Source of the DNA: a plasmid
Length of the DNA stretch: 60,481 nt
Sequence record: NZ_CP024182.1
Direction: 5' to 3' (one strand)
The notes below the pieces were generated by a model. The model had not been told where the DNA came from and ran no database searches. It saw nothing but the letters and a program-made list of their open reading frames with translations. Shown piece after piece: positions 3,328-20,925 of the stretch. The position numbers and the translations under genes were made by a program. How positions within the stretch are numbered: the stretch's first letter is position 1; each line of letters begins with the position of its first letter.

Positions 3328-5352
3328 TTAAGATGTTTTTCTCATCAACCACATAAAGTACACACCACCTATGATAGCTGCGATTGTGCCTGCAGGGATT
3401 TCATAAGGGAAAATCACATACCGACCCAACCAGTCAGCCATTACCATCAAAATTGCCCCAAATAACATACTAATCGGTAATTGTTTATTAAGATTAACCG
3501 CCCCAAAATAAGTTGCCAAGTGTGGTATCATCAGCCCCACAAAACTTAACGGACCAACTGCTAGGGTAGTCGCTGTACTTAAGCCAGCAATCACCAACAG
3601 GACAGCCATATCTGCCATCCGAATACCAAGCCCTAACGACCTGGCGACTGAACGCCCTAGGCTCAATAATCGAAGGGGTTCAATTAATAGCCAACCGCAA
3701 GTGACTAAGATAATGGCAAAGCCGATAAGCCACCATACGGTTTCAGGTCGGGCACTATACGTTGTGCCAGATAGCCAACTTAATATCGATTGGAGTCTTG
3801 GGTCGCCTGCCAAATTGATTAAGCTTAGGACACCATTCATCAACGCCCCTATCGCCACCCCAACCAAAATTAAATAATCCGAGCTTAATTTTTTAGACAA
3901 CATTAAAATTAGCCACAAGGTTGCCAATGCACCCACAATACCACCGACAAAAATACTACCCAATGCCAGTGGCAAGCCTAATAACGAGGCAATCAGTAGA
4001 TAAATCAGCACCCCCACCGCAGAGCCAGAGCTGATACCTAGCACTTCAGGGCTTGCCATCGGGTTTCGGGTATAAGATTGAATCATCACACCTGCCGTTG
4101 CCAGCATAATTCCTGTGGCAGCCGCACTAAGCGTTCTGGGTAAGCGAAATTGATAAATCATCTCGCTATCCCATGATAGCCCCCAACCGCCCGTATGGAT
4201 ATTTTTGGTAAACCCCAATGCCATCATAATAATGACAAACAATGCCAAACTTAAACCTACATAAGTCATGGGAGTAATGGCTCGCTGGCGATAGTGGGTA
4301 AAAGTCGCCGTATCACCGAGCGTTTGGTGACGCTGCCGTAAAATCACCCAAATAATCAAAGGTGCACCCAAAATACCTGTGATTGCCCCCACAGGAATCA
4401 CCACAGGCATTTTCTGCATGAGCATCATCACCACATTACTGGCAAACCATAACAGCCCACCACCGAGCAAAAACCCCAATACCAACCGACTGGCTAACTG
4501 TCGTACCCGACTGATATTAACCAAAGTTGCCGCACCCAGCCCCACAAAGCTTAACACCCCAACCTGACTGACAACCAAAGCCACTAGTACCGCCACCAGT
4601 ACCAATACCAATGCTCGTATCGTGGAGATAGGCACACCCAGACTTTTGGCTTGGGTATCATCCAAGCTCATCAAGCTAAGTGGTTTGAGCAAAGGAACAA
4701 CCAAAAGGGGTAGAGCGATTGTGGTAATGGCAAGTAACTGGGTACTTTGCCAACCAAGTTGAGAGAGCACACCCCCGCCCCAAACCATGACGCCCAAGGA
4801 TTTTTCCGAAAAAAACAACATCATTAATGAGGACAAAGCTGAAAAGAAAATATTAATAATCAAGCCAGACAAAACTAAAACCACAGGATTAAAACGGCTT
4901 GGCATCGCCATAAGCCACACCAGCCCCATACTCATAAGTGAGCCAATCAGTGCCACCCAAAAATTACCATACAAGCCAAGATTCGGCAAAAACAAGGTGA
5001 CAATCAACAGTGCCATTTGAGCACCGCTACCCACTGCCAATGTGGTATCCGAAGCCAGTGGATTTTTTACCAGTTGTTGTAGTAACAGACTGGCAACCCC
5101 CAGTAGCCCACCTGCCATGATAGCTACCAATGTGGTGGGTAACAGCTTGAGCTGTGTGGCTAACTCCTGCACGCTTAACTGTTGGCTTGCCGTAAACAGA
5201 TGAGCAATAGGGGCATGCCATAATTGAGCGAATAGATAATAACTACTAGCAACAATCAGCCCAAGCCAACATATAATGCCAACAAATTGCTTAACAAAAG
5301 ACTTATTCACAACACGGCTACGGGTATTTTGGGTGATAACGCTTTTTTTCAT
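3328..5352 (-). CDS. Iron-siderophore ABC transporter permease, fused double FecCD domain (FhuB-like)
   Basis: 674 aa, very hydrophobic, with two repeated permease halves. It forms an operon with an ATPase and a binding protein. Confidence 0.85.
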   Translation of the reverse strand: MKKSVITQNTRSRVVNKSFVKQFVGIICWLGLIVASSYYLFAQLWHAPIAHLFTASQQLSVQELATQLKLLPTTLVAIMAGGLLGVASLLLQQLVKNPLASDTTLAVGSGAQMALLIVTLFLPNLGLYGNFWVALIGSLMSMGLVWLMAMPSRFNPVVLVLSGLIINIFFSALSSLMMLFFSEKSLGVMVWGGGVLSQLGWQSTQLLAITTIALPLLVVPLLKPLSLMSLDDTQAKSLGVPISTIRALVLVLVAVLVALVVSQVGVLSFVGLGAATLVNISRVRQLASRLVLGFLLGGGLLWFASNVVMMLMQKMPVVIPVGAITGILGAPLIIWVILRQRHQTLGDTATFTHYRQRAITPMTYVGLSLALFVIIMMALGFTKNIHTGGWGLSWDSEMIYQFRLPRTLSAAATGIMLATAGVMIQSYTRNPMASPEVLGISSGSAVGVLIYLLIASLLGLPLALGSIFVGGIVGALATLWLILMLSKKLSSDYLILVGVAIGALMNGVLSLINLAGDPRLQSILSWLSGTTYSARPETVWWLIGFAIILVTCGWLLIEPLRLLSLGRSVARSLGLGIRMADMAVLLVIAGLSTATTLAVGPLSFVGLMIPHLATYFGAVNLNKQLPISMLFGAILMVMADWLGRYVIFPYEIPAGTIAAIIGGVYFMWLMRKTS

Positions 5353-5354
5353 TT

Positions 5355-6380
5355 TTACCCCTTTGGCTTGGTCGTGTTTGACAATGGTGGGGATGACAGG
5401 TTTGGCGGTGCCACGCCTTGTAAGGGCGTTTGGCTTAAGTGGTCAGCAAATTGACGCATGGATGCGATACCCCCACCATATGACCAAACAGGGTCTATTA
5501 TAGCCATACACCGCTTATGACCAAAGCCAAGTTGTTGCCATAGCACGCTTTTATCAAGTTCGGCTTGTAGCATATGACTAAAGGGTTTTATCACTATCAG
5601 ACAACTGTCGTTCTCAAGTTTTGCCAATTCTGCTAACTCAATATTACTAAAGCCCCATTTATTGCCTTGATGAAAGTTGACAAGCGATACGCCGAGCTGG
5701 TCAGTTGTAACTTTAAATAGACTATTGTCAGCATACAGACGTAAATGCCCTGCATCCGCAAACTGTACGATTGCCAATTTTTTGATATTAGGATAACGAT
5801 GCCTAAATTGCTGTCCTTGCTGTTGTAAGACCTGCTGACTTTGGGTAAGGTAAGTCTGTACTCGTTCATTGCCTTGTGGGTTGCCAGCATCTTGCAAGAT
5901 TTGACCCAGTGCTATGGTAGCGTTGGCAAAGTCTTGCCAAGTAGCAACATCTCCTTTGGCTTTAAAAAGCACGGACTTGGTAGGCACACTGCCATACATC
6001 GGGCGGATATGCTCATAAAAAAAGTTATCAATCACCAAATCGACATTCAGTTGTGCGATAAGCTCTGGGTTGGGTTGATAACGAATACCAAGGTCAATGG
6101 TCTGCTTGGGTAGTGGTTTTCCCATCCATTGCTCATACATTCGCAAGTCGCCTGTGGCAATGGGCGGATAGCCCAAAGCTGTTAGTTCGGCGGCAATTCC
6201 CCAATCAGGGGTCAGAATGCGTGTTGCTTGTGTCGTATGCACAGAGGCAGGCGTATCACGGGTGGCAGTGGTCGTGTTAGAATGACAAGCGACTAGAACA
6301 AAGCCCAGTAAAACATTGCTAAAACAACGGCTTAACTGAGCCAATCGATTATGGGTCGTGTATTGGCTGGTTTTTGTCAT
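5355..6380 (-). CDS. Periplasmic siderophore-binding lipoprotein (FhuD/FecB-like)
   Basis: 341 aa. It has a lipobox-like signal (LLGFVLVACHS). Its stop is 3 bp from the permease start and its start overlaps the ATPase stop. It belongs to the class II substrate-binding family by context. Confidence 0.75.
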   Translation of the reverse strand: MTKTSQYTTHNRLAQLSRCFSNVLLGFVLVACHSNTTTATRDTPASVHTTQATRILTPDWGIAAELTALGYPPIATGDLRMYEQWMGKPLPKQTIDLGIRYQPNPELIAQLNVDLVIDNFFYEHIRPMYGSVPTKSVLFKAKGDVATWQDFANATIALGQILQDAGNPQGNERVQTYLTQSQQVLQQQGQQFRHRYPNIKKLAIVQFADAGHLRLYADNSLFKVTTDQLGVSLVNFHQGNKWGFSNIELAELAKLENDSCLIVIKPFSHMLQAELDKSVLWQQLGFGHKRCMAIIDPVWSYGGGIASMRQFADHLSQTPLQGVAPPNLSSPPLSNTTKPKG

Positions 6381-7141
6381 AAGATTGCCACCTTGTAGTC
6401 ATGTTCAGGGTGGTCAATCAAGCGTAATGACACCCCAAATATCGACTCAAGCACCGCTTGGGTCATAGTATCTTGCACGCTACCAAGATGACAGAGTTTA
6501 CCGTCTTTAAGGGCGATGATATCATCACAAAACTGAGCCGACAGATTGATATCATGGATAATCAATACCACGCCCAATTCACGTTCTTTTGCCAACTGAC
6601 GTAATAAACGTAAAATTTCGACTTGATAGACAATATCCAATGGGGCTAAAAGTTCATCAAGTAGTAGATAGCGGGTTTGCTGTGCTAATGCCATGGCAAG
6701 CCACGCCCTTGCTCGCTCACCACCCGACAACGATGCAACCGTCTGTGTCGCCTTATGCTGAATTTGGGTTTGGTGCATACTGTGTTCTACAATATCTCGG
6801 TCGGCTTGGACGGGCTTACTAAGCCAGCGTTGCCAAGGGTAACGCCCCAACATCACCAGTTCTTCCACGGTAAATGCGTGGGTCGCAGGTAAATTCTGCG
6901 GTAGATAGGCGATTTTTCTGCCCAATGCCTTACCGCCTAATTGTCGTAAAGGCGTATCATCAACACGGATATCACCGTGTGAAGGTAGTATTTCACCTGC
7001 CATCAATTTGATGAGTGAAGATTTTCCAGAGCCATTTTGACCAATAAGGGCATACAGTTTGCCTTGGGCAATATCACAGGAAATGTCTTCAAGTATGGGG
7101 GTATTACTTTGTTGCCAAGCGACTTGATTGATTGTCAGCAT
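6377..7141 (-). CDS. Iron-siderophore ABC transporter ATP-binding protein (FhuC/FecE-like)
   Basis: 254 aa with Walker A GQNGSGKSS and the ABC signature LSGGERARA; a Walker B region (LLLDE) is also present. Confidence 0.9.
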   Translation of the reverse strand: MLTINQVAWQQSNTPILEDISCDIAQGKLYALIGQNGSGKSSLIKLMAGEILPSHGDIRVDDTPLRQLGGKALGRKIAYLPQNLPATHAFTVEELVMLGRYPWQRWLSKPVQADRDIVEHSMHQTQIQHKATQTVASLSGGERARAWLAMALAQQTRYLLLDELLAPLDIVYQVEILRLLRQLAKERELGVVLIIHDINLSAQFCDDIIALKDGKLCHLGSVQDTMTQAVLESIFGVSLRLIDHPEHDYKVAIL

Positions 7142-7237: not shown

Positions 7238-8326
7238 TCATCGCCAATAAACTTTTAAAACCATCTGTTGTCTATTCATTGCTAAGGCCTGTTGCAACCA
7301 AGGTCTTAGCGTTTTGACCAGTCTTGCTTGCAGTCCGCCCCACACGCTGTCAAAGGTCATCTGTTCATCCAGTAATTGCTGAATATGTCCTTGTATGTCA
7401 TGGCTATCATAATGATTTATTTGAATTAAGCGATAAGGCGTGGCACTTGTACTGTGTGATAAATAAGCCTGTTCGGTGGCATTGTGGGTCATGACCATCA
7501 CCACAGGTGGGATAGGATTTTGCCATTGCTCAAGTAACCGTGCCACAGTTGGTAACGATGTTTCATCCGCTATAAGCAAAGCTTTGCCATCATGTAAATG
7601 ATGAACATGCTCGGCAAACTCTCGCTGGGTGGTGATGGTGTCGCCAAGCTTGCGAGATGTTGCCCAACGACTGCCAAGATTATCACCATGCACATAGACA
7701 TCTATCCAAACTTGAGCATTTGATGTGGTTTGGGTGACTTGACGAAGGGTGTAATAACGGTGTGGTCGGGGTCTGCTATCTTTGGTTTTATCAACCAATG
7801 ACTCATCGATATCAAATAAATACGCATAGCCTGCTTGGTCAATGACTGTATCGTTTGGTGCAGTTAATACCATGCGATACATATTCTCGGTCACAAAAAA
7901 CCCTTGTAGAAAAGTAAATTTTCGCTCAAGCGTCTGAATCGGCAATCTACCCAACTGACGTTGACTACGCTCTAGGACTTTGACATACGCCATCATCAAA
8001 TCTTCTAATTGCTCAATGGGTTGGTCAAAATCCACCCATAAGCGGTGCAAAACAGGCAAGGGCTTTTCTTGGCTTGGCGTATTGGCTATGGCGTTATGAG
8101 TGGCGAACTGGCAGACCTTCATCTCAAAGCCATGGTGATAAATCTGCTCAACCGACACAGCAATTTGCTGAGATAGCTCACCCAGCTTGGCTTCGGCTAT
8201 CGTCCGTAAGTCATGGGTATGCTCATCATTAATGTGCGAAATAATGTCTGCTAAAAAAGGGGTAATATTAGGGTCACTGATAGGTGTAGGTGGCAATGTT
8301 TGCATAGTAAGATATTTTTGATTCAC
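7238..8326 (-). CDS. Siderophore-interacting protein / ferric-siderophore reductase (ViuB/SIP family) with N-terminal extension
   Basis: 362 aa. The C-terminal half carries RPHRYYTLRQV (the SIP FAD-binding RxYT/S motif) and an NAD-binding-like segment LLIADETSLPTV. About 170 N-terminal residues have no call. Confidence 0.55.
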   Translation of the reverse strand: MNQKYLTMQTLPPTPISDPNITPFLADIISHINDEHTHDLRTIAEAKLGELSQQIAVSVEQIYHHGFEMKVCQFATHNAIANTPSQEKPLPVLHRLWVDFDQPIEQLEDLMMAYVKVLERSQRQLGRLPIQTLERKFTFLQGFFVTENMYRMVLTAPNDTVIDQAGYAYLFDIDESLVDKTKDSRPRPHRYYTLRQVTQTTSNAQVWIDVYVHGDNLGSRWATSRKLGDTITTQREFAEHVHHLHDGKALLIADETSLPTVARLLEQWQNPIPPVVMVMTHNATEQAYLSHSTSATPYRLIQINHYDSHDIQGHIQQLLDEQMTFDSVWGGLQARLVKTLRPWLQQALAMNRQQMVLKVYWR

Positions 8327-8548: not shown

Positions 8549-10915
8549 TTAGAACCAGTTTAGGCTATATTGAAGCCCATAAGTCCGCCCTTGGGCTTCT
8601 TGCCCTGCCAAAGGACCTGCAATCGCTTCAGCAGTTTGGTTAAACACGCTGCGGTAGCGAGTATTGCCGATGTTATACACCCCAAACGCCAAATCCCCTT
8701 TAGGTAGTTTGATTTGTCCTAACAAATCTAGGGTGGCATAGCCAGTGATTTTTGCCTCACTGGATTTGCTAATATTGTCATCCACCGCTGCAACTAGCAT
8801 GTCGTTGTAAGCCTTATCGGTACCACCAATTGCAGTGCCTTGTAGGCGAAGGCTATTGCCTTGCGGGAATGTATATTGTGCATAAGCGGTTGCTTTAAGG
8901 GGGGTGACGCGAAATGCCCCTAAGTCACGCCATGCCCCTGCGGCATCTTTATATTCGCCTTTAGTATAAGCAAGACTAGAACCTACTGACCATTCTTGAT
9001 TAAATCGGTGATTGATACTGGCTTCTGCCCCATAGATTCTCTCATCAGTATCAGCAGCGATGACATTAAAATCTTTGGTAAACTGCACCACTTTATCTGA
9101 GGTATTATAAAACCCCACCACTTTGGCTTTGGTTTTGTCAAAATCACCCTGCCAACCTAATTCATAATTATTGACTGCAATCGGTGCAACCGTATCAGAA
9201 TTGACCTTAAAGCCGACATTCACATCTCGTAGTACTCGCTGAATATCGGGCAGATTAAAGCCTTGGGAAAAGTTGGCAAAAATTTTCTGCTGGGGTGCGA
9301 TGTTATAACTTGTCCCAAGATTAAATAAGGTTTTGTTATGCTTGGTTTCACCTGCAGGCACACTACCTGCTTGATAAGTCAAGTTGAGCTGAGCCAATAA
9401 ATCTTGTAATTGGGCTTCGTTACGAGTGGTAAAGGCATCCGTCTTAGTGGTGATGTTTTGGTGGCGAACACCGCCACTCACATGCCATTTATCTGTGACA
9501 TCAGCATCTAAATTAACAAATGCCCCTACCTTATCAATGGTGCTGTTTGGGCCTGCGGTGTAGCGTGTATTATTTGGCTGAATCTTCAGCCCATTACTGT
9601 CAATAAAGGTTTTAAGGTCATTACCATCGTAATACTGCTTGTCTGTTTCTCGCTCAAAGTCAGCACCATAGCTCCATAAGAGCTTTTTATCTTGCCATGT
9701 ACTGGGAGTTTGCATGGCGGCACGCAGTCCCATCACATTGATATCGGCTGTTGATTGCAAGATACTGTAGGCACTGTTTGCCAGTTTCTTTTTATATTTG
9801 TCTTTGGTTGCGTTATCAACCGCCAAACTGTCAATCAAGGGATAGGCAGGTTTGATCGATATGGGGGCAGGTGTCGGATAATAGCGTCCGTCTTCTTGAC
9901 GATAATAACCTGTCACGTTCAGATTAGAGCCTTTGATATCACTGTTATTATAATTTAGGCTCACGGTGGATTTTTTGGTAAAGGGTTGATTGTCTAATTG
10001 CAACCCTTTGATGGCTTGCATTGATGGTGTATCGCCTTTGAGTAGCACACCTAACCCTTTGCCATAATCAGGGGCATAGTCGGTATCTTGTTGGTCTTTA
10101 TAGTAAGTAGCCGCCAAATTGATGTTTTGTGTGGGTGTGGCTTGATAGTTGAGATTGGTGTTGACGCTCAAACTATCAGTATCTTGTAAATCCGTTTGCC
10201 AAACTTCTGGGGCAATGCGTTTATTGTCACTATCAAAGCGTCCACCCCTTGATTCATAATCCACATCTACTCGGGCGTTAAGCTTGTCATTACCAAAAGT
10301 CACTGTCTGCCCAGCACTATAACCCAACGCCTCTTTGTTAAAATTATTATTGGTCGATATGCCAATACGACTTTCACCATGTAGCCCTTGTTGGTAGCTA
10401 GATTTGGTCACTAGATTAATCAGTCCACCTGTCGCTCCAGACCCATAGATACTGGTTGCTCCTGATAAAACTTCGATACGCTCTAACTGCTTAGGGTTGA
10501 TGCTATTGATTTGGCGTGAAATATCTCGAGAGCCTGTCAATGGTACGCCATTGATAAGGTATTGGACAGGTCTGCCGTGCATGGTCATCCCAAAGTTACT
10601 CGCCGTACCACTGCCTGCACCTAAGCTTGGCACAAGTTGTCCTAAAACATCAATGACGGTACGACCTGCTACTGCTTGTTGGGAAATTTGTTTTTCGCTA
10701 ATGACTTGGGTGACTTCAGGCATTTCACTGATTTTTTGTGCCAATACCGTGCCTGATTTGATTCCGGCGTAGAGTGTCAACTCATCCAACGTTGTGGTAG
10801 GTATATCATCGTTCGCTGATATTTGTGCTTTGGCGGTTTCAGCATGCAGTTGTTGGTTAACCGCAACTGCTAGCAGGGTCACTATAAAAGCTTTTTGGTA
10901 CATAAGAATCCTCAC
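8549..10915 (-). CDS. TonB-dependent siderophore outer-membrane receptor
   Basis: 788 aa. It has a signal peptide (MRILMYQKAFIVTLLAVAVNQQLHA), a TonB-box-like DELTLYAG, and the terminal aromatic residue (…YSLNWF) of TonB-dependent receptor barrels. It is Fur-box regulated. Confidence 0.9.
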   Translation of the reverse strand: MRILMYQKAFIVTLLAVAVNQQLHAETAKAQISANDDIPTTTLDELTLYAGIKSGTVLAQKISEMPEVTQVISEKQISQQAVAGRTVIDVLGQLVPSLGAGSGTASNFGMTMHGRPVQYLINGVPLTGSRDISRQINSINPKQLERIEVLSGATSIYGSGATGGLINLVTKSSYQQGLHGESRIGISTNNNFNKEALGYSAGQTVTFGNDKLNARVDVDYESRGGRFDSDNKRIAPEVWQTDLQDTDSLSVNTNLNYQATPTQNINLAATYYKDQQDTDYAPDYGKGLGVLLKGDTPSMQAIKGLQLDNQPFTKKSTVSLNYNNSDIKGSNLNVTGYYRQEDGRYYPTPAPISIKPAYPLIDSLAVDNATKDKYKKKLANSAYSILQSTADINVMGLRAAMQTPSTWQDKKLLWSYGADFERETDKQYYDGNDLKTFIDSNGLKIQPNNTRYTAGPNSTIDKVGAFVNLDADVTDKWHVSGGVRHQNITTKTDAFTTRNEAQLQDLLAQLNLTYQAGSVPAGETKHNKTLFNLGTSYNIAPQQKIFANFSQGFNLPDIQRVLRDVNVGFKVNSDTVAPIAVNNYELGWQGDFDKTKAKVVGFYNTSDKVVQFTKDFNVIAADTDERIYGAEASINHRFNQEWSVGSSLAYTKGEYKDAAGAWRDLGAFRVTPLKATAYAQYTFPQGNSLRLQGTAIGGTDKAYNDMLVAAVDDNISKSSEAKITGYATLDLLGQIKLPKGDLAFGVYNIGNTRYRSVFNQTAEAIAGPLAGQEAQGRTYGLQYSLNWF

Positions 10916-10975
10916 TCAAATCTAACAAATTATTTTGGTTTTGTAACAATTGAGTAATATTAGCACATATAATTA

Positions 10976-10996
10976 ATAATGATAATCATTATTATT
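10976..10996 (-). promoter_or_regulatory. Fur box upstream of the TonB-dependent receptor gene
   Basis: aataatgataatcattatt against the consensus GATAATGATAATCATTATC (17/19), about 60 bp upstream of the ATG. Confidence 0.65.
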
Positions 10997-11656: not shown

Positions 11657-11671
11657 ACCTTGTTGAAAAAA

Positions 11672-13750: not shown

Positions 13751-13752
13751 TG

Positions 13753-15696
13753 TTACCCCTGCTTCAATTTAAACTGAGACAATGGATTGTCTAGCCATTT
13801 GATTGGAAAATCACGGTCACCAAATAATCGACGTTTTGCCAGTGATTCAATTCTGGTTTTTTCAGCAAACAAGTCAAAGCACTGATAGCGAGATTGATGT
13901 TCGGGATAGCGTTTTGCAAAGGCATGAATACTATCAGCCACTTGTTGCCAAAATACGGCTTCTGAATAGTGATAATGGGTCTGTAAAAAAATAGCAATAT
14001 CAGCAAATGCCACAAAAAACAGACAAGCAACCGTCATATCACGAATACCTGCGGTATCGTCTGTTTCGATAAATGAGCCACGATTAAGCCTTGCATGTGC
14101 CTGTGGTAGTTGCTCTAAGATAGGTTTGGCATTAGGGTGAGTCAGCTTATCGGGGCAAAAGCGAATGCCATCATGCAAATCTTTCAGTAGCACCTTGATG
14201 GGATAGCCATCATCATGCACCAAAACGATATTTTGGGCATGGCACTCCAATGCAATGCCTTGGGCAAATAGCATATAAATAATCGGTGTAACCGTCACGT
14301 CAATCAGTTGCCTCACCCAATCTGCCATGTCATAACGTTGCAACCAACTGTCAATCAAAGGTTTGCCATTTGGCTGAATATAACTAATACCATTGAGCGG
14401 GAATGCTGACTGCCCTTGCCCTAAATACTGATGAACATTTTCACGCCATATACTTGCCAAACCGCCATAGATTGCAGGGTGATGATAGCCTTGCTGTTGT
14501 AAACGTTCGTGGTTTAGACTCACCCCCATGACTTCCCCCAAGAAATTCACTTGCAAATCCACGGCTTTCTTGTCGTTCGCCACCAACGTTTTTAGCCAAT
14601 GAGTAATGGTTGCACTATTTAATACCGTATGTTTTGCCAAAATGCGGGTACTTGATGTATTCACCAAGTGCATTGCCAATTTCAGATAAGGCGACGGCAA
14701 TAGGGCGTGTTTTTCATTATCAGCAGGGCGATAAGCTAAGGTACGAATCGACTGCTGGGCATAATAATCCATACCAACTTCACCAAGATAGACCACTTGA
14801 TGCGTTTGCATTAGGGGTGTCAATGCCTCTATTAATGTCGCTTGCCACTGCCAAGGATGAACAGGGACGAACGCAAAATGCTCAACAGCTAATGCATATT
14901 GCGATAGCCGTTCACACAACTGCTCATAAATCTCATCACCAAGATATTGGCGACACCAACTATCATAACCAAACTCTTGCGTGGTATTGGTTACCAATAG
15001 CTCTGTATTGACAGCCAGCCACACCAATTGTATCGGATGGGCAAATTCTGGACCAAAACGGTAATTATCCTCTAGGCTAAACCCAAGTCTTGATTTATAA
15101 CAAGGGTGATACGGATGTCCAAAGTCCAAATAGCCTTCCAACTCATCGTAAGCCATCTCGTGTAGTTGTTTGATATGTTGCTGTCTATGGTGGCGTGATT
15201 GACAATCATGGATAAACGTTTGACGCAATTCTTTGATAAAACTGTCTTTAAGCGTTGCCTCTTCTAATGGCATTAACACATCATTAATGACATCATCAAG
15301 GTGGGCTGTTGTTTGCATACCTTGATAAGTTTTGGTTACAGGCGTATCAGATAAGCGAATCATGCCAAAGCTAAAATGCACTCGCCCAATGGCTTTATAT
15401 ACCACGTCGTTCGGACACGTGATACTAAACTGAACTAGGCCCTGCTCAAGACTTGAACGCTCAACCACACATACGTTTGACAAAATATCTTCAAACAATA
15501 ATGCCTGTAACAACTGGCGGATAACCCGTTGCTCAACTTCGTGAATAATTGCAGTATCCAGTGGCGACTGCCACACTTGCAAAGCGTTAGATGTCAAAAT
15601 ATTCCCCTTAAATTTATGATTGTTGTTGATTGATAAAACTACTCGATGTTCTTGGTAATGCAAATGCAAAGGGCAAACTAAGCAATAACATCCCAC
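13753..15696 (-). CDS. IucA/IucC-family NIS synthetase (second paralogue)
   Basis: 647 aa, beginning 3 bp after the previous synthetase. The annotated start is GTG and overlaps the MFS gene by about 80 bp, so the true start may be internal. Confidence 0.8.
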   Translation of the reverse strand: MGCYCLVCPLHLHYQEHRVVLSINNNHKFKGNILTSNALQVWQSPLDTAIIHEVEQRVIRQLLQALLFEDILSNVCVVERSSLEQGLVQFSITCPNDVVYKAIGRVHFSFGMIRLSDTPVTKTYQGMQTTAHLDDVINDVLMPLEEATLKDSFIKELRQTFIHDCQSRHHRQQHIKQLHEMAYDELEGYLDFGHPYHPCYKSRLGFSLEDNYRFGPEFAHPIQLVWLAVNTELLVTNTTQEFGYDSWCRQYLGDEIYEQLCERLSQYALAVEHFAFVPVHPWQWQATLIEALTPLMQTHQVVYLGEVGMDYYAQQSIRTLAYRPADNEKHALLPSPYLKLAMHLVNTSSTRILAKHTVLNSATITHWLKTLVANDKKAVDLQVNFLGEVMGVSLNHERLQQQGYHHPAIYGGLASIWRENVHQYLGQGQSAFPLNGISYIQPNGKPLIDSWLQRYDMADWVRQLIDVTVTPIIYMLFAQGIALECHAQNIVLVHDDGYPIKVLLKDLHDGIRFCPDKLTHPNAKPILEQLPQAHARLNRGSFIETDDTAGIRDMTVACLFFVAFADIAIFLQTHYHYSEAVFWQQVADSIHAFAKRYPEHQSRYQCFDLFAEKTRIESLAKRRLFGDRDFPIKWLDNPLSQFKLKQG

Positions 15697-17029
15697 CTAT
15701 TAATAACAATAGCTCCTGTAAAATGCCGACCTCATTAACGGCTTGTGTTTGACGATAATTGACATACGCCATCGCAAGCCAAATCACCAACCCTGAACAT
15801 ATTCGGCGACTGATATTATTGAGCGATGCACCCTCTGTAACTTTATCAGCAGGCAGTTGGCTAAAACCAACGGTCGTGGTTGGGATATAAGCAAGCCCTA
15901 CGCCCAATCCATGCACACAAACCCATATCACCACAGCAATGATAGAAATATCCACCAACTGCCAAGCCAAACCAAAACTTGCTGATGCGGTCAATATCAC
16001 ACCCCAACAACCGAGCAATCTAGCACCCTGTTTGTCAACAATTTTGCCCACTAATTGCGTGGTAACACTGGCTATCAAGGTTGATGCCATCAACACCCAC
16101 CCCGTCCATGTGGCAGGGTGGTGCATGACTTGTTGTATCAGCATTGGCAACAAGATTAAATACAGCATCAAGCCGATGGTTTGCGTCACACTGATAATGG
16201 TGCAATAGCGATAGATACGATTATCAAAAATGTTTACCTGTAACAAAGGGGTCGCATGGTAATATTCATAGAGCCACCAACGATAGCTACCATAACTCAG
16301 TATCCCACCCAGTCCGATCATGGCAACCATCATCCACTCAGAAAATTGAGCAGTATATTGATGAGCCATACGCTCCCACACAAAACCACCCAGTAGCAAC
16401 AAGCAAAGCCCTAACAAGCCTTTTTTATCCAAGTTTCGTTGCTGGATTTTAGCTTGCTGATGTGGTAGATAATGCCAGACCAAAGCCCATGCCAATCCCA
16501 TCAAAGGCACATTGATAATAAACAACACATCCCAGTCATACCACTTGAGCAAGTACGCTCCAACCAATGGACCAATTGCCAAGCCCAACATCACCACCAT
16601 ACCCCACAGCCCCATCGTCTGACCTTGACGCTGATGTGGTACGATTTGGTACAATATCCCCACCGATAAAGGAATCAAAATACCTGCCGCTAGACCCTGT
16701 AAAAACCTAGCCCCACTCACCCAATCAATACTGGGTGAAAAATAGCCCATCATTGACCCCAAACCAAAGATCGCAAGGGCAGTCAAATACAATGTTTTTC
16801 GGGCAAAAATTGTCGCTAAATAACTCACCATGATTAGCCCGATTGCCATGGCAATCACATAAGCATTTAATACCCAACTAGCGCTCACTAGTGGAACACC
16901 AAACACTTGCATAAACAGTGGGATAGCGGGGTTTAATGCACTATTGCTGAGACTGACGACTACACCGCCAAGTAGGAGCGAAAAAATCACAGCAGAATTT
17001 GACAGTGACTGTGGTGTGTGTTTTGACAT
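15614..17029 (-). CDS. MFS transporter (probable siderophore exporter)
   Basis: 471 aa with about 12-14 predicted TM helices. It is located inside the biosynthetic operon, as in aerobactin/rhizobactin-type clusters. Confidence 0.75.
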   Translation of the reverse strand: MSKHTPQSLSNSAVIFSLLLGGVVVSLSNSALNPAIPLFMQVFGVPLVSASWVLNAYVIAMAIGLIMVSYLATIFARKTLYLTALAIFGLGSMMGYFSPSIDWVSGARFLQGLAAGILIPLSVGILYQIVPHQRQGQTMGLWGMVVMLGLAIGPLVGAYLLKWYDWDVLFIINVPLMGLAWALVWHYLPHQQAKIQQRNLDKKGLLGLCLLLLGGFVWERMAHQYTAQFSEWMMVAMIGLGGILSYGSYRWWLYEYYHATPLLQVNIFDNRIYRYCTIISVTQTIGLMLYLILLPMLIQQVMHHPATWTGWVLMASTLIASVTTQLVGKIVDKQGARLLGCWGVILTASASFGLAWQLVDISIIAVVIWVCVHGLGVGLAYIPTTTVGFSQLPADKVTEGASLNNISRRICSGLVIWLAMAYVNYRQTQAVNEVGILQELLLLIGGMLLLSLPFAFALPRTSSSFINQQQS

Positions 17030-17062
17030 ATCAGCAATTACCCATACGACCCTAAGCTAGGA

Positions 17063-17677
17063 TTACAAAGTATCTGTGATTGTTGGATAAAAACTTTGAT
17101 AGCCATTTGATTGATAAAAATCCTCACGATGACAAAAGTACAAACTGGCTTTTTTCTCAGGCATCTCAATATAGCGTTGCAAAAAATAGCCAAATTGCTT
17201 TGTCACCCATTGATATAACTCAATGCTGCTATCTGGCTCTACCACAATTTTAGTTGCCTCAGTATGTTCAAAAATAAACTCTGAAATCAGCATCCCTGTC
17301 GGTTTTAGGTAGCCTCGACCCACCGCATCCGTATTACCTAACAATAAATGCCAGCCAATATCACTATCTTTAGCTTGGTAATAGCGAGCAAGACGGTCAC
17401 GTTTGGCTTCATAAACTTCGGTATAGCCAATATCCACCCCATCGCAGACAACGATGTATAGACGCTGGTGGTCATCAGCAAGAGCTTTTTCGATATGGGC
17501 TTTAAGTGCTGGCATTGGCAGGTGTAATTGCCATTGAGCGACAACATGTTCGGCGTGCATCCATTGGTAAATCAATGGCATATCTTCAGGATAGCGTAAC
17601 GCACGCAAGCAAAAGGTTTTTTGATAAAAATTTCGACTAAATTGATTGGGTAGCTGTGTCATCATCGCTGATTTCAT
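17063..17677 (-). CDS. IucB/RhbD-like N-acyltransferase for N-hydroxy-amine acylation
   Basis: 204 aa. It is immediately downstream of the N-monooxygenase with a 1-bp gap, a GNAT-like size. Its position is equivalent to iucB/desC/rhbD. Confidence 0.65.
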   Translation of the reverse strand: MKSAMMTQLPNQFSRNFYQKTFCLRALRYPEDMPLIYQWMHAEHVVAQWQLHLPMPALKAHIEKALADDHQRLYIVVCDGVDIGYTEVYEAKRDRLARYYQAKDSDIGWHLLLGNTDAVGRGYLKPTGMLISEFIFEHTEATKIVVEPDSSIELYQWVTKQFGYFLQRYIEMPEKKASLYFCHREDFYQSNGYQSFYPTITDTL

Positions 17678-19060
17678 TTATGGCACCTCATCATGTGACA
17701 CATTGTTAGCATGACCGAAAGTTTGGAATACCGTCAAAGCTTGCGTATCAAAATAAGGCTCGCCCAAAATTTGATTGGCAATCACCCCTGCTCGATACGC
17801 CCCCAGCCCAAGGTCGGGTGTACCTATGCCATGACTGTGTAATTCTTGATTTTGTACAAACACTTCCCCAACATGCTCTGTTGATGAACCCAATATCAAA
17901 CGATAATCATGGCTAATTTTGGGCTGTCCCAAAGTCGTTGTTGTCACTTCTGGCATCAGAGCATCCATACAACTTGGGAATTGATGTTGATAACCTGTTC
18001 CAGCGATAATACAATCATAAGTCTTTTGGCAAGACTGCTGTTGCTGACGTTGAAAAAACTGCACCGCTAAACGCTCATCGACTCTTACCACGGAATCAAG
18101 CTGACAGTTTGCCATCAAGGTGCAATGCTGAGGACGATTACCTATGGTACGTTCATACAGTAGCTGATAAATATCTTGAATCGTGCTCATGCCCATGCCT
18201 TTATACATCAGACCTTGTTCACACAGTAGTTGAGCCTTGATAGACTCATCCAAATGGTAGTAATACTCTGTATAAGCAGGGCTGAAATGCTCCAACCCAA
18301 GTGGCGAATACTCCATCGGAAAAAACCCTGACGACCGTGTTACCCAGTCTAGCTCATAATTAAGCTTGCTATCGGTGTACTGCTGTTGCAACAGATGACG
18401 ATACACTTCAGCTGAGGACTGCCCTGACCCGATAACCAAAATATGTGGAATATCGATGTGCTTTTTTAGTGCGGACAAATCAAACTGACGGGCAAAGTTA
18501 GCAGAGTGCATACAACGATTAGGCATGTCATTAGCGACAGCCTGTAATACTTTCGGCAAGGTCGGCTGTGTACCTGTCCCAATGACCACATGACGAGCAT
18601 GGTAGCGGTGACTGATGCCATTTTGTATGACAGTAACCACATAGCCCACGCCACAGCTGGATTTTTCGACACTTTTTACATGACTATCAAAAACCACATT
18701 GGGTAATTGATGAGCAGCCCATTGGCAATAATCATTGTATTCCTGACGAGGGATTTTGAAATTTTCTAAAAAATAAAACTTTAACAGTCTTTTTTTATGG
18801 CTTAAATAATTCAAAAAACCATACCGACTGGTGGGGGCAACCAACGTCACCAAGTCAGCAAAAAATGGGACTTGGAGCGTAGTTTTTGGTAACAACATTC
18901 CTTCATGCCAATTAAAATCACTATTTTTTTCAAAAAACAGAGAAGTTATATTAGAGGTTACTGCTTTTTTTGATTCATTCGCTTGCACAAGCAAGGCAGC
19001 CAAACTTAAATTAAAAGGACCTAAACCAATACCAATGACATCAAGCACAATGCACCCCAT
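17678..19060 (-). CDS. Lysine/ornithine/diamine N-monooxygenase (IucD/RhbE family, FAD-dependent)
   Basis: 460 aa. The N-terminus has the FAD-binding sequence GIGLGPFNLSLAALL and a second dinucleotide motif HILVIGSGQSSAE. Confidence 0.85.
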   Translation of the reverse strand: MGCIVLDVIGIGLGPFNLSLAALLVQANESKKAVTSNITSLFFEKNSDFNWHEGMLLPKTTLQVPFFADLVTLVAPTSRYGFLNYLSHKKRLLKFYFLENFKIPRQEYNDYCQWAAHQLPNVVFDSHVKSVEKSSCGVGYVVTVIQNGISHRYHARHVVIGTGTQPTLPKVLQAVANDMPNRCMHSANFARQFDLSALKKHIDIPHILVIGSGQSSAEVYRHLLQQQYTDSKLNYELDWVTRSSGFFPMEYSPLGLEHFSPAYTEYYYHLDESIKAQLLCEQGLMYKGMGMSTIQDIYQLLYERTIGNRPQHCTLMANCQLDSVVRVDERLAVQFFQRQQQQSCQKTYDCIIAGTGYQHQFPSCMDALMPEVTTTTLGQPKISHDYRLILGSSTEHVGEVFVQNQELHSHGIGTPDLGLGAYRAGVIANQILGEPYFDTQALTVFQTFGHANNVSHDEVP

Positions 19061-20861
19061 TATTTAATTGACGTGAATAAATAGGTTGTAATGGATTTGG
19101 CACATTGACATACACAGATTGGGTTTCAACAGGTGCAGTCAATTCATCCAACCCTTGCATACGGGTCAATAAATTACCCTTAAAAGGAAGCATGTCCTGT
19201 CTAAGCAATAGCTCAAATAACTCTCGATGAGGATAGCGTTGTTCTAATGCCATCAATCTATTGACGAGTTGCGTGAGTAGTTGCTCTTCGCTTGCCCAAC
19301 CTGTACGTGCAATAGCAGTGATAAGTCCAAATAGATGGTTGGCGATAATATAATAAGCAAATCGCTCATTGGCAAAAAATTCAGGCACAACACATTCTGC
19401 CTCATCCATTAAGGCGGGTATTTCATCTATTAATGAGCCTGCGTACTCGGCAATATAGCCAAACCCTTGATTATCCCTTACCCACAATCGGCTTGGATAA
19501 TAATCCTTTAACTCAAGCAAGCTATTTTGTTGATGGGCTTCAAACCCCAACCCATGTTCATAATAAAGCGACACTAATGGCTCAAATCCTACTTTTAAGT
19601 AGCTGTCAAACCAGTCGCTAGCAATGACTGTGTTATCTTGGGCAGTATTTGCTTTAATCGCTTGGAATAATGTCTTAATTCGATTGGTACATCGAGTCGG
19701 ATGGTCTTGGCATAAACTGGCTAAATTTGAAACTTGTATAGATGGGTCAAATGGATTGTCCCTTAAAATACAAATGGTTTCATTAATAACCTCACCATCA
19801 ATGGTGAGTGCAAGCCAAGCAGGGTCATTAATGACTGACAAGGTGGGGTATTGTTGTTTTAGACGTTTGCCAAACTCACTTCGCCAGATTTGACAAGCAT
19901 AATAGCCACGCTGACACTCTTTGGCTAAATTGATTCTGACTGAATTGGTAATAGCAACTGATAGGGAAAGCTTGAACATCCAAGGGGCATCAAAACTGGC
20001 AAGCGTTCTGACCGAAGTGGTCGGTGATAGATACCAGCCCATTGCTCCTAACGGATAGATTTTTTGCTGTTGAAACAACGTTTCATACCAAGGTTGCTGT
20101 TGCAAAAATCTTGCTTGCCAAGGATGTAATGGCAACAACCGATAATCTGTGTGTTGCTGTAGCATTTTTTGCTGATAGTCTGTTAAATAAGGTGTGAGCT
20201 TAGTTAATAGCTCTTGATAAATATCTTCACCGTCCACCCAGTTACCTGTAACATAATCTGACTGCACCAACCAATAGTTAAGTTGGAATTTACTTTGTGT
20301 TTCAGGGGCGTATTGCTCCCATTCTTGTGCATAAAAACCATCTCGACCTTTGGGCGTTGGGTGCATGGTGTGACCATATATGAGATTTTGTTCCGTCTCC
20401 ACAAAATTTAATTCTGCACTGACAATATCATCAATATTATCTAAACGATGGGTAAGTATCTTGCCTAACCCTTCATAACTTTGTAACCAACGCCCTAACA
20501 CCTCATGTGATTTATCAGTAGTGGATTGGGTGTTAGATGATAATTGATAATAAGCAATACTTTGTAATACCAATGTTGCCACTGTTGATGCAGTGTAATC
20601 ACAGCTTTGACCATTCAAAAATACCGTCGGCTCTTCCAAAAATCGTACATTACCTAGCTGACTTACCTTGTCAATAGGCACTCGTAATAACATTGACGTA
20701 GGCAACAAAGGCACTTCAAGTAAGGGTTGACGTTGTGAAAAATTTAAACACGCTTCATTTTGCTCTGAAACCTCTATATAACGCCCGACCCCAAGTTCAT
20801 AGCAATAAGCGTTGATTAGATTTTGTAAAGCCAACCGATTTTGAATCTCAGTCTGCAACAT
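19041..20861 (-). CDS. IucA/IucC-family NIS synthetase (third paralogue, first gene of operon)
   Basis: 606 aa. It overlaps the monooxygenase start by 20 bp. A Fur box lies about 45 bp upstream. Confidence 0.85.
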   Translation of the reverse strand: MLQTEIQNRLALQNLINAYCYELGVGRYIEVSEQNEACLNFSQRQPLLEVPLLPTSMLLRVPIDKVSQLGNVRFLEEPTVFLNGQSCDYTASTVATLVLQSIAYYQLSSNTQSTTDKSHEVLGRWLQSYEGLGKILTHRLDNIDDIVSAELNFVETEQNLIYGHTMHPTPKGRDGFYAQEWEQYAPETQSKFQLNYWLVQSDYVTGNWVDGEDIYQELLTKLTPYLTDYQQKMLQQHTDYRLLPLHPWQARFLQQQPWYETLFQQQKIYPLGAMGWYLSPTTSVRTLASFDAPWMFKLSLSVAITNSVRINLAKECQRGYYACQIWRSEFGKRLKQQYPTLSVINDPAWLALTIDGEVINETICILRDNPFDPSIQVSNLASLCQDHPTRCTNRIKTLFQAIKANTAQDNTVIASDWFDSYLKVGFEPLVSLYYEHGLGFEAHQQNSLLELKDYYPSRLWVRDNQGFGYIAEYAGSLIDEIPALMDEAECVVPEFFANERFAYYIIANHLFGLITAIARTGWASEEQLLTQLVNRLMALEQRYPHRELFELLLRQDMLPFKGNLLTRMQGLDELTAPVETQSVYVNVPNPLQPIYSRQLNNGVHCA

Positions 20862-20904
20862 AAATTTCCCTAAAATTTAAATGATAATGATTTTTAGTTT
20901 GCAA

Positions 20905-20925
20905 ATGATAATCATTATCATTTAA
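20905..20925 (-). promoter_or_regulatory. Fur box at the siderophore biosynthesis operon promoter
   Basis: aaatgataatcattatcattt, with the core gataatcattatc matching the Fur consensus. It is flanked by additional gataatgat repeats (20881-20935). Confidence 0.7.

What the first reader, a model, noticed from the sequence alone, without database searches (positions are those of the whole stretch)
3328..20925. Plasmid-borne hydroxamate/citrate (NIS) siderophore locus with three IucA/IucC synthetases and no precursor-supply gene
Seen: a contiguous minus-strand block with Fur boxes at 20905-20925 and 10976-10996. The operon from 20861 to 11021 encodes an IucA/IucC synthetase, an IucD-like N-monooxygenase, an IucB-like acyltransferase, an MFS exporter, two further IucA/IucC paralogues and an RraA-family protein. 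A TonB-dependent receptor, a siderophore-interacting reductase and an FhuBCD-type importer follow. Established knowledge: aerobactin, rhizobactin-1021, schizokinen, acinetoferrin and desferrioxamine pathways use one or two such synthetases plus the same monooxygenase/acyltransferase pair. Three synthetases occur in achromobactin-type pathways, which are not hydroxamates, and in baumannoferrin-type pathways. Inference: the product is probably a citrate-based hydroxamate needing three amide/ester condensations. The diamine or amino-acid substrate (no decarboxylase, aminotransferase or citrate synthase gene is present) must come from the host. An RraA-family enzyme inside an NIS operon is unusual and may supply or tailor a keto-acid building block such as oxaloacetate or alpha-ketoglutarate chemistry.
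Basis: partly seen in the sequence, partly recalled or inferred. Interest (0 to 1): 0.65.

Follow-up and report, generated by a model that had tools for sequence, protein, structure and literature searches.

The report
Plasmid-borne baumannoferrin-type siderophore gene cluster
This stretch of a Moraxella osloensis plasmid carries a complete, iron-regulated set of genes to make, export and re-import an iron-scavenging molecule; it is a diverged relative of the known baumannoferrin system of Acinetobacter baumannii, not a new kind of pathway.

Summary

The biosynthetic operon plus receptor matches, gene for gene and in nearly the same order, the baumannoferrin (bfn) cluster of Acinetobacter baumannii. 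There are eight reciprocal best hits: BfnA, B, L, C, D, E, G and H. Identity is only 35-48%.

The three synthetases are one each of NIS types A, C and B. The 2-oxoglutarate chemistry therefore comes from the type B synthetase.

The RraA-family gene is not unusual. It is the BfnG orthologue, and the same subfamily sits at the end of achromobactin loci in Dickeya and Pseudomonas syringae. It lacks the catalytic arginine of the related aldolases, so a keto-acid-supplying role is doubtful.

The missing precursor genes are also shared with bfn.

The nearest relatives (40-68% identity, same eight-gene order) lie on the chromosomes of about 30 Psychrobacter species.

What differs from bfn: plasmid carriage, and an FhuCDB importer plus SIP reductase in place of the FhuF-like and PepSY genes.

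The product has not been characterised. It is most likely a baumannoferrin-like acyl-hydroxamate/citrate/2-oxoglutarate siderophore.

Verdict: new member of a known kind, of moderate interest.

The parts
20901..20925 (-). Fur box(es) at the promoter of the biosynthetic operon
   Evidence: Matches the 19-bp Fur consensus with 2 mismatches at 20901-20919, plus an overlapping 4-mismatch copy at 20907-20925. Overlaps the -10 hexamer of a sigma-70-like site at 20933-20905. Promoter-like sites are not enriched over chance in this region.
19041..20861 (-). Type A NIS synthetase, BfnA orthologue (citrate-activating)
   Evidence: IucA_IucC + FhuF domains. Best solved relatives are IucA (186 bits) and AcsD. 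Reciprocal best hit to A. baumannii BfnA, 47% identity. Clusters with BfnA in the tree.
17678..19048 (-). Flavin N-monooxygenase, BfnB orthologue (diamine N-hydroxylase)
   Evidence: Lys_Orn_oxgnase, E = 2e-107. Best solved relatives carry the PDB titles 'Monooxigenase' (6xbb), 'Putrescine N-hydroxylase' (7us3) and 'L-lysine 6-monooxygenase involved in desferrioxamine biosynthesis' (5o8p); they score above lysine and ornithine hydroxylases. 43% identical to BfnB.
17063..17677 (-). IucB-family N-acyltransferase, BfnL orthologue
   Evidence: Acetyltransf_8, E = 2e-35. 48% identical to BfnL. In A. baumannii this gene lies at the far end of the cluster.
15614..17029 (-). DHA2-family MFS exporter, BfnC orthologue
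   Evidence: MFS_1; EmrB-subfamily match of 206 bits, below that family's cut-off of 230. 35% identical to BfnC.
13753..15597 (-). Type C NIS synthetase, BfnD orthologue (AcsC/SbnF/AsbB-like)
   Evidence: SbnF model 493 bits. Best solved relative AsbB, 370 bits, then DesD, AlcC and IucC. 45% identical to BfnD and 40% to Dickeya AcsC.
11672..13750 (-). Type B NIS synthetase, BfnE orthologue (2-oxoglutarate-activating, SbnC/AcsA-like)
   Evidence: SbnC model 328 bits. Best solved relative 7cbb, 243 bits. 37-42% identical to BfnE and 36% to Dickeya AcsA; clusters with BfnE and AcsA.
11021..11650 (-). RraA-like protein, BfnG orthologue; function unknown
   Evidence: RraA-like Pfam. Reciprocal best hit to BfnG, 35%. 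Model pLDDT 93; best fold match is HMG/CHA aldolase 3noj, TM 0.79. Thr-108 replaces the essential Arg-123, while Asp-109 corresponds to Asp-124.
10975..10993 (-). Fur box at the receptor promoter
   Evidence: 2 mismatches to the consensus. Overlaps the -10 hexamer of a sigma-70-like site at 11008-10979.
8549..10903 (-). TonB-dependent siderophore receptor, BfnH orthologue
   Evidence: Plug + barrel domains. RhtA model 325 bits, below cut-off. 41% identical to BfnH.
7238..8305 (-). Siderophore-interacting (ViuB-type, FAD) ferric reductase with an N-terminal DUF2470 domain
   Evidence: SIP, FAD_binding_9 and DUF2470. Weak matches to ViuB and other solved siderophore reductases. No counterpart in bfn.
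6377..7141 (-). FhuC-like ABC ATPase
   Evidence: ABC_tran; FhuC model 240 bits.
5355..6380 (-). FhuD-like periplasmic binding protein
   Evidence: Peripla_BP_2 is weak, 21 bits. Matches solved FhuD chains at 3e-15 and other iron-siderophore binding proteins at 6e-20.
3328..5352 (-). FhuB-type fused double permease
   Evidence: Two FecCD stretches, E = 2e-120. RefSeq names the gene fhuB.
3072..3088 (-). Terminator-like hairpin closing the block
   Evidence: 6-bp stem with 5 G-C pairs followed by ATTTTTG, 240 bp downstream of fhuB. Consensus match only.

Best explanation
The block is a complete siderophore system carried on Moraxella osloensis plasmids. It is probably repressed by Fur and belongs to the baumannoferrin (bfn) type.

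Proposed mechanism (inferred by orthology; not shown experimentally here):
1. When iron is scarce, Fur leaves the two boxes. The seven-gene operon (20861 to 11021) and the receptor gene are transcribed. The reductase and fhuCDB genes probably follow by read-through.
2. A host-made diamine is N-hydroxylated by the BfnB-like monooxygenase. In baumannoferrin this diamine is 1,3-diaminopropane.
3. The BfnL-like acyltransferase then N-acylates it, giving a hydroxamate arm.
4. The type A synthetase joins that arm to one terminal carboxyl of citrate.
5. The type C synthetase joins a second host-made amine to the other citrate carboxyl. In baumannoferrin this amine is 2,4-diaminobutyrate.
6. The type B synthetase caps the remaining amino group with 2-oxoglutarate.
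7. The MFS pump exports the product.
8. The ferric complex returns through the TonB-dependent receptor and the FhuD/FhuB/FhuC importer. The SIP reductase releases the iron in the cytoplasm.

The RraA-like BfnG orthologue is a conserved accessory protein of unknown role. It is probably not a canonical aldolase or decarboxylase.
For: - Gene content and domains.
- Published bfn gene list, including an RraA family protein as bfnG: PMC10483418.
- A genuine A. baumannii bfn locus was fetched as L043. All six published bfnA, bfnF and bfnL primers match it with 0-1 mismatch.
- There are eight reciprocal best hits at 35-48% identity, in nearly the same order.
- The synthetases fall one each into types A, C and B, by best solved relatives, NCBIfam models and a tree that includes AcsA and AcsC.
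- The monooxygenase is closest to diamine N-hydroxylases.
- The two Fur boxes are the only strong matches in 60 kb, with 0.1 expected by chance. Fur-like boxes also lie upstream of bfnA and bfnL in A. baumannii and upstream of the receptor gene in some Psychrobacter loci. [quoted passage not shown]
- The same eight-gene order is kept in about 30 Psychrobacter species and one Psychrosphaera MAG.
- All twelve genes are intact in independent plasmids, with pN/pS of 0.14-0.15.
Against: - No chemistry or expression data exist for this cluster. I found no paper on a Moraxella osloensis or Psychrobacter siderophore.
- At 35-48% identity, substrate choice (diamine, amino acid, acyl chain) cannot be read from sequence.
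- Whether M. osloensis makes 2,4-diaminobutyrate and 1,3-diaminopropane could not be checked.
- One M. osloensis seed isolate was scored negative on CAS agar. Its plasmid content is unknown (PMC11626040).
- No Fur box or clear promoter lies upstream of the SIP and fhuCDB genes, so their iron control is only inferred.
Confidence: 0.8

Rival explanations
1. The machinery is the same but the molecule is different. The Moraxella/Psychrobacter clade may make a structurally new siderophore that shares only the logic of baumannoferrin. It could use another diamine such as putrescine or cadaverine, another amino acid in place of 2,4-diaminobutyrate, or a different acyl chain.
For: - Identity to Bfn enzymes is only 35-48%.
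- The clade is separate from Acinetobacter in every protein.
- The best solved relatives of the monooxygenase include a chain titled putrescine N-hydroxylase (7us3) and one from desferrioxamine biosynthesis (5o8p).
- The type B synthetase has a long N-terminal region not covered by BfnE.
- From my own memory, unverified: 1,3-diaminopropane is the hallmark polyamine of Acinetobacter, not of Moraxella or Psychrobacter.
Against: - Every biosynthetic Bfn enzyme has exactly one orthologue here, and there is no extra tailoring gene.
- No solved 1,3-diaminopropane hydroxylase exists for comparison, so cannot discriminate between diamines.
Confidence: 0.4
2. The cluster is silent, or serves mainly for uptake, in M. 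osloensis. The host may lack the amine precursors, so no siderophore is made. The receptor, FhuCDB and SIP genes would then be kept for piracy of hydroxamates made by neighbours.
For: - No precursor gene anywhere on the plasmid.
- One M. osloensis isolate was CAS-negative.
- The import module is a separate addition, absent from the Psychrobacter and Acinetobacter versions.
Against: - All seven biosynthetic and export genes are intact in all plasmids compared.
- They show purifying selection (pN/pS 0.00-0.30 per gene).
- They keep a strong Fur box.
- A. baumannii makes baumannoferrin from a cluster that equally lacks precursor genes.
Confidence: 0.1
3. One reading: this is an unusual NIS pathway in which an RraA-family enzyme makes or tailors a keto-acid building block (oxaloacetate or 2-oxoglutarate chemistry).
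For: - The protein has the HMG/CHA aldolase/oxaloacetate decarboxylase fold (TM 0.79 to 3noj).
- It keeps the metal-binding Asp.
- Its subfamily occurs only next to loci with a 2-oxoglutarate-using type B synthetase in the cases examined.
Against: - The essential enolate-stabilising Arg-123 is an invariant Thr in all 22 siderophore-linked homologues aligned; in the aldolase, R123A is inactive and R123K is 181-fold slower (PMC5065237).
- In P. syringae and Dickeya the gene follows the importer genes, not the biosynthetic ones, and is paired with a FhuF-like reductase gene in P. syringae and Acinetobacter.
- 2-Oxoglutarate and citrate are central metabolites.
- The gene is standard in bfn, so the pathway is not unusual.
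Confidence: 0.1

Closest known systems
Baumannoferrin (bfnA-L) cluster of Acinetobacter baumannii
   Same: One-to-one orthologues of BfnA (type A synthetase), BfnB (monooxygenase), BfnC (DHA2 MFS), BfnD (type C), BfnE (type B), BfnG (RraA-like), BfnH (receptor) and BfnL (acyltransferase). The order is nearly the same: A-B-[L]-C-D-E-G-H. Fur boxes lie upstream of the first gene. No precursor genes are present.
   Different: - Identity is only 35-48%.
- The acyltransferase gene sits third instead of last.
- BfnF (FhuF-like), BfnI, BfnJ (PepSY_TM) and BfnK are absent. A SIP reductase and FhuCDB importer are present instead.
- It is plasmid-borne rather than chromosomal.
- The product is uncharacterised.
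Uncharacterised chromosomal clusters of Psychrobacter species (and one Psychrosphaera MAG)
   Same: The closest relatives found. They have the identical eight-gene order SynA-Mox-Acyl-MFS-SynC-SynB-RraA-receptor at 40-68% identity.
   Different: They are chromosomal. No SIP or FhuCDB genes lie beside them. No product is described in the papers searched.
Achromobactin (acs/cbr) loci of Dickeya dadantii and Pseudomonas syringae
   Same: A three-synthetase logic, as far as the fetched loci show: type C and type B relatives are present (AcsC 40% and AcsA 36% identical); the type A gene acsD lies upstream of the fetched stretch and was not compared. There is an MFS exporter and an ABC importer. An RraA-like gene of the same Thr-Asp subfamily (38% identical) sits at the end of the locus.
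   Different: The stretches fetched (from the MFS exporter gene onward) hold no N-monooxygenase or acyltransferase, and achromobactin is a carboxylate, not a hydroxamate (established knowledge). Those loci include an HpcH/HpaI aldolase-like AcsB. By my own knowledge they also carry their own decarboxylase (AcsE) and diaminobutyrate aminotransferase (AcsF); the gene list of PMC3223175 agrees.
Staphyloferrin B (sbn) pathway
   Same: Uses types A, C and B synthetases. The window's type C and type B enzymes give their best NCBIfam matches to SbnF (493 bits) and SbnC (328 bits).
   Different: All scores are below the family cut-offs. By established knowledge, sbn has no hydroxamate enzymes and no RraA-like gene, and it carries its own precursor genes.
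Aerobactin / rhizobactin 1021 / acinetoferrin type clusters
   Same: An IucD-like monooxygenase plus IucB-like acyltransferase make a hydroxamate arm that an IucA-like type A synthetase joins to citrate. The receptor resembles RhtA.
   Different: By established knowledge those pathways use two synthetases (A + C) and no type B enzyme, so they contain no 2-oxoglutarate, and rhizobactin 1021 carries rhbA/rhbB precursor genes.

Membership tests
NIS (IucA/IucC) siderophore biosynthetic cluster | At least one synthetase with an IucA_IucC domain plus a C-terminal FhuF-like domain | tested here: met
   Three such proteins, with E-values of 3e-45 to 1e-63 for IucA_IucC.
Baumannoferrin-type (bfn) cluster | One synthetase each of types A, C and B, orthologous to BfnA, BfnD and BfnE | tested here: met
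   Reciprocal best hits at 47%, 45% and 37-42% identity. There are three clean clades in the tree. Typing by solved relatives and NCBIfam agrees.
Baumannoferrin-type (bfn) cluster | BfnB-type N-monooxygenase and BfnL-type acyltransferase (the hydroxamate arm) | tested here: met
   43% and 48% identity, reciprocal best hits. Pfam Lys_Orn_oxgnase and Acetyltransf_8.
Baumannoferrin-type (bfn) cluster | BfnC MFS exporter, BfnG RraA-like protein and BfnH TonB-dependent receptor in the same block | tested here: met
   35%, 35% and 41% identity, reciprocal best hits, same relative order.
Baumannoferrin-type (bfn) cluster | BfnF (FhuF-like 2Fe-2S reductase) and BfnI-J-K (PepSY_TM module) | tested here: not met
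   tblastn of BfnF, BfnI, BfnJ and BfnK against the whole window finds nothing at E <= 1e-3. SIP and FhuCDB take their place.
Baumannoferrin-type (bfn) cluster | [quoted passage not shown] | not testable with these tools
   Needs chemistry. The composition is taken from PMC10483418.
   35-48% identity to A. baumannii and 34-46% to the A. pittii variant.
Achromobactin-type cluster | AcsB (HpcH/HpaI), AcsE decarboxylase and AcsF aminotransferase; no hydroxamate-forming enzymes | tested here: not met
   No such domains occur in the locus or the window. A monooxygenase and an acyltransferase are present.
Aerobactin / rhizobactin-1021-type cluster | Two synthetases only (types A and C), no type B enzyme | tested here: not met
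   A third synthetase, of type B (SbnC/AcsA-like), is present.
Fur regulon | Fur-box sequence at the promoter | tested here: met
   Two sites with 2 of 19 mismatches, 0.1 expected by chance, each overlapping a -10-like hexamer.
Fur regulon | Fur binding and iron-dependent expression | not testable with these tools
   Needs EMSA or footprinting and qRT-PCR. Metal-dependent upregulation is published only for the A. baumannii siderophore genes, bfn among them (PMC7595644).
HMG/CHA aldolase / oxaloacetate decarboxylase branch of the RraA superfamily (for the 209-aa protein) | RraA-like alpha-beta-beta-alpha fold | tested here: met
   Model pLDDT 93; TM 0.79 to 3noj, E = 2e-15.
HMG/CHA aldolase / oxaloacetate decarboxylase branch of the RraA superfamily (for the 209-aa protein) | Essential Arg-123 next to the metal ligand Asp-124 | tested here: not met
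   The protein has Thr-108/Asp-109. The Thr is invariant in 22 siderophore-linked homologues, while an outgroup has Arg-Asp. Essentiality of Arg-123 is from PMC5065237. The second metal ligand, Glu-199, lies outside the aligned stretch and was not tested.

The most novel reading that the evidence does not exclude
The Moraxella/Psychrobacter clade makes a structurally new acyl-hydroxamate/citrate/2-oxoglutarate siderophore that is not baumannoferrin. It is mobile between strains on plasmids of a skin and laundry bacterium.

In addition, the BfnG-type RraA-like proteins may form an unrecognised accessory family. They have Thr in place of the catalytic Arg. They are linked to loci for siderophores that contain 2-oxoglutarate and 2,4-diaminobutyrate, and are often paired with a FhuF-like reductase. 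Their role would be non-aldolase, for example in iron release or in handling the 2-oxoglutaramide end of the siderophore.
Probability: 0.3. Interest if true: 0.5.

Novelty: new member of a known kind. Interest (0 to 1): 0.35.

Why it matters
Moraxella osloensis is a common skin, indoor-water and laundry bacterium and an occasional opportunist. I found no description of a siderophore for it or for Psychrobacter.

Showing that its iron-scavenging system is plasmid-borne and of the baumannoferrin type has three uses:
- It gives a concrete prediction for the chemistry: a lipophilic mixed hydroxamate/alpha-hydroxycarboxylate siderophore.
- It identifies a receptor that could matter for siderophore-antibiotic conjugates.
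- It provides a natural example of an NIS core recombined with a different uptake module (FhuCDB + SIP instead of PepSY + FhuF).

The comparison also shows that the RraA-like BfnG protein recurs across baumannoferrin and achromobactin loci while lacking the aldolase catalytic arginine. This is a small, testable open question in NIS biology.

It does not open a new class of pathway.

Tried and rejected
- The genome-collection scan with an RraA-like alignment reached only Moraxella, Psychrobacter and Psychrosphaera. Its peptide patterns missed Acinetobacter. I reached Acinetobacter instead through protein searches and exact-protein look-ups.
- The first Acinetobacter locus fetched (A. pittii, L039) did not match the published A. 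baumannii bfn primers. It has a different gene order, so I did not use it as the reference. L043 matches all six primers.
- Literature searches found no characterised product for M. osloensis or Psychrobacter siderophores, and no assigned function for RraA/BfnG. A search on Moraxella polyamines and diaminopropane gave nothing usable.
- I could not examine the M. osloensis chromosome for 2,4-diaminobutyrate aminotransferase and decarboxylase genes.
- The promoter and terminator scans are not enriched over shuffles. I use them only as consistent with the model, not as evidence.
- pYHS2 (NZ_CP024178.1) shares window coordinates up to about 25 kb but differs beyond that. I therefore annotated the rest of the window with Pfam directly.
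- One literature search term was rejected for syntax.

Full report
**What is there.**

The window is a Moraxella osloensis plasmid. Region 3328-20925 is 98.3-99.0% identical over its full length to eight deposited Moraxella plasmids, seven of M. osloensis and one of Moraxella sp. DOX410. In pYHS2 it even has the same coordinates. The rest of the window carries a plasmid backbone: ParA at 101-718, a Rep3 initiator at 58546-59649 and a NikA-like gene at 48321-48827. It also carries transposons and a type I restriction system.

- Three proteins combine IucA/IucC and FhuF domains.
- The others are a Lys/Orn-oxygenase-type N-monooxygenase, an Acetyltransf_8 (IucB-family) acyltransferase, a DHA2 MFS pump, an RraA-like protein, a TonB-dependent receptor, a SIP-type reductase, FhuC, and a fused FhuB.
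- The binding protein scores below the Pfam cut-off, but it matches solved FhuD chains at 3e-15.

The two Fur boxes are the only matches to the 19-bp consensus with 3 or fewer mismatches in 60 kb. Each has 2 mismatches, against 0.1 matches expected by chance. Each overlaps the -10 hexamer of a sigma-70-like site, although such sites are not enriched over chance.

No PLP decarboxylase, aminotransferase or citrate synthase is encoded in the locus or in any ORF of 100 aa or more that I scanned elsewhere in the window.

**What it is.**

The published gene list of the A. baumannii baumannoferrin cluster reads as follows (PMC10483418):
- bfnA: siderophore biosynthesis protein
- bfnB: monooxygenase
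- bfnC: DHA2 MFS
- bfnD: AcsC-like synthetase
- bfnE: IucA/IucC synthetase
- bfnF: 2Fe-2S protein
- bfnG: RraA family protein
- bfnH: TonB-dependent receptor
- bfnI: hypothetical
- bfnJ: PepSY
- bfnK: hypothetical
- bfnL: acetyltransferase

I fetched a genuine A. baumannii bfn locus, L043. All six published bfnA, bfnF and bfnL qRT-PCR primers (PMC7595644) match it with 0-1 mismatch, inside the expected genes. Reciprocal BLAST then gives eight one-to-one pairs:

| Window gene | Bfn orthologue | Identity |
|---|---|---|
| SynA | BfnA | 47% |
| Monooxygenase | BfnB | 43% |
| Acyltransferase | BfnL | 48% |
| MFS | BfnC | 35% |
| SynC | BfnD | 45% |
| SynB | BfnE | 37-42% |
| RraA-like | BfnG | 35% |
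| Receptor | BfnH | 41% |

The order is the same except that the acyltransferase gene lies third instead of last. BfnF, BfnI, BfnJ and BfnK have no counterpart in the window. SIP and FhuCDB have no counterpart in bfn.

**Typing of the synthetases.**

| Synthetase | Best solved relatives | Other evidence | Type |
|---|---|---|---|
| SynA | IucA and AcsD | - | A, citrate-activating |
| SynC | AsbB, then DesD, AlcC, IucC | SbnF model 493 bits | C |
| SynB | 7cbb | SbnC model 328 bits | B, 2-oxoglutarate-activating |

A neighbour-joining tree with BfnA/D/E and with AcsC/AcsA from Dickeya and P. syringae gives three clean clades. SynB groups with BfnE and AcsA, and SynC with BfnD and AcsC.

The monooxygenase is closest to three solved N-hydroxylases: 6xbb (PDB title 'Monooxigenase'), 7us3 ('Putrescine N-hydroxylase') and 5o8p (a desferrioxamine-pathway enzyme). 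It matches these more strongly than lysine or ornithine hydroxylases.

**Relatives.**

The nearest relatives outside M. osloensis are chromosomal clusters in about 30 Psychrobacter species and one Psychrosphaera MAG. They have the identical eight-gene order and 40-68% identity. No SIP or FhuCDB genes lie beside them.

Acinetobacter comes next, at 34-48% identity. Among deposited plasmids, only Moraxella carries this cluster. The other plasmid hits to the type B synthetase are 42% identical or less: 39% in Sodalis, 37% in Thalassospira and 31-32% on the Ralstonia megaplasmids, which I did not examine further. The 42% hits are three A. baumannii records of 3.7-4.1 Mb, evidently chromosomes filed as plasmids.

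I found no paper describing a siderophore of M. osloensis or Psychrobacter.

**How it most likely works.**

Shown by sequence: the parts list, the orthology and the Fur-box matches.

Inferred by orthology to bfn, and from the established roles of type A, C and B synthetases:
1. A host-made diamine is N-hydroxylated and N-acylated.
2. The type A enzyme joins this arm to citrate.
3. The type C enzyme adds a second amine to the other citrate carboxyl. In baumannoferrin this is 2,4-diaminobutyrate.
4. The type B enzyme caps it with 2-oxoglutarate.
5. The MFS pump exports the product.
6. The receptor, FhuDBC and the SIP reductase bring iron back into the cell.

The system appears to be maintained by selection. 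All twelve genes are intact in independent plasmids, with pN/pS of 0.14-0.15. Divergence is mosaic: MFS-SynC-SynB are 97-98% identical at the nucleotide level while their neighbours are 99.7-100%.

Iron control of the SIP-fhuCDB genes is only inferred. No Fur box and no clear terminator lies between them and the receptor gene.

**The RraA-like gene.**

This gene is not an oddity. It is bfnG. Homologues of the same subfamily (38% identical) lie at the 3' end of two achromobactin loci:
- In Dickeya dadantii the gene lies directly after cbrD.
- In P. syringae it overlaps a FhuF-like gene. An earlier genome paper lists it there as 'dimethylmenaquinone methyltransferase' (PMC3223175).

A high-confidence model (pLDDT 93) has the HMG/CHA aldolase fold (3noj, TM 0.79). 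However, the residue aligned with Arg-123 is Thr-108. Arg-123 is essential in the aldolase: R123A is inactive and R123K is 181-fold slower (PMC5065237). Thr-108 is invariant in all 22 siderophore-linked homologues aligned, from Moraxella, Psychrobacter, Acinetobacter, Pseudomonas, Dickeya and Lonsdalea. The metal ligand Asp is kept, and an outgroup protein has the canonical Arg-Asp pair.

A canonical aldolase or decarboxylase role is therefore doubtful. Its frequent position beside uptake and reductase genes hints at a role in utilisation rather than in precursor supply. This remains unexplained.

**Comparison and verdict.**

The locus works like, and is a diverged member of, the baumannoferrin type of NIS cluster. 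It passes the tests for the biosynthetic core, exporter, RraA-like protein and receptor. It fails those for the FhuF-like and PepSY module, which a SIP reductase and FhuCDB importer replace.
- It is not an achromobactin-type cluster. It has hydroxamate-forming enzymes and lacks AcsB, AcsE and AcsF.
- It is not an aerobactin or rhizobactin-type cluster, because a type B synthetase is present.

The architecture, however, is known.

I rate it a new member of a known kind, with interest 0.35. The points of interest are plasmid carriage in a common skin and laundry bacterium, the swapped uptake module, an uncharacterised product shared with many Psychrobacter species, and the unresolved role of the RraA-like protein.

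Noticed in passing
L002 (BMPS01000020.1, 'Streptomyces cinereus JCM 3040'), whole locus: A contig of a Streptomyces assembly carries the entire cluster at 97-100% protein identity to the M. osloensis plasmid. This is almost certainly contamination of that assembly with Moraxella osloensis DNA.
   Followed up: partly
window 21182-22551 and 29766-31122, bracketing 22541-29071: Two IS3-family copies in direct orientation, 88-89% identical. They flank an SdsA-like alkyl sulfatase (22541-24697), a Tn3 transposase (25439-28396) and a resolvase (28460-29071). This may be a composite transposon carrying alkyl-sulfate detergent degradation, which is notable for a laundry-associated bacterium.
   Followed up: partly
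L044 10001-10642 (Dickeya dadantii); L046 9225-10624 (Pseudomonas syringae); L043 9244-10651 (A. baumannii): RraA-like genes of the same Thr-Asp subfamily close the achromobactin loci. In P. syringae and Acinetobacter they overlap a FhuF-like reductase gene, forming a recurrent FhuF-like + RraA-like pair.
   Followed up: partly
window 50235-58072: Type I restriction-modification operon (hsdR 50235-53249, hsdS 53260-54564, hsdM 55679-58072) with an Abi_2 abortive-infection gene (54703-55638) inserted between hsdS and hsdM.
   Followed up: no
window 41345-44650: 1101-aa autotransporter (ESPR signal + beta-domain). Several overlapping ORFs in other frames around 43037-43656 suggest an internally repetitive passenger domain.
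   Followed up: no
window 35882-40653: A small metabolic island beside an IS fragment: a truncated Asp/Glu racemase (35882-36343), a LeuA-like 2-isopropylmalate synthase (36563-38236), an AraC regulator (38667-39434) and a PhzF-like isomerase (39793-40653). No link to the siderophore locus was found.
   Followed up: no
PLSDB records NZ_CP077849.1, NZ_CP064203.1, NZ_CP104448.1: Three A. baumannii 'plasmid' records of 3.7-4.1 Mb are evidently chromosomes filed as plasmids. They carry bfnE.
   Followed up: no
window 11672-17029 compared with L001 and L003: Divergence between M. osloensis plasmid copies is mosaic. MFS-SynC-SynB are 97-98% identical at the nucleotide level, while the flanking SynA, monooxygenase, acyltransferase and RraA-like genes are 99.7-100%. 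The receptor is 96% in strain 8444. This suggests allelic recombination inside the cluster.
   Followed up: partly
window 45782-48316: An 844-aa ORF with no Pfam match lies directly downstream of, and is probably co-transcribed with, the NikA-like mobilisation gene. It is probably a divergent relaxase.
   Followed up: no
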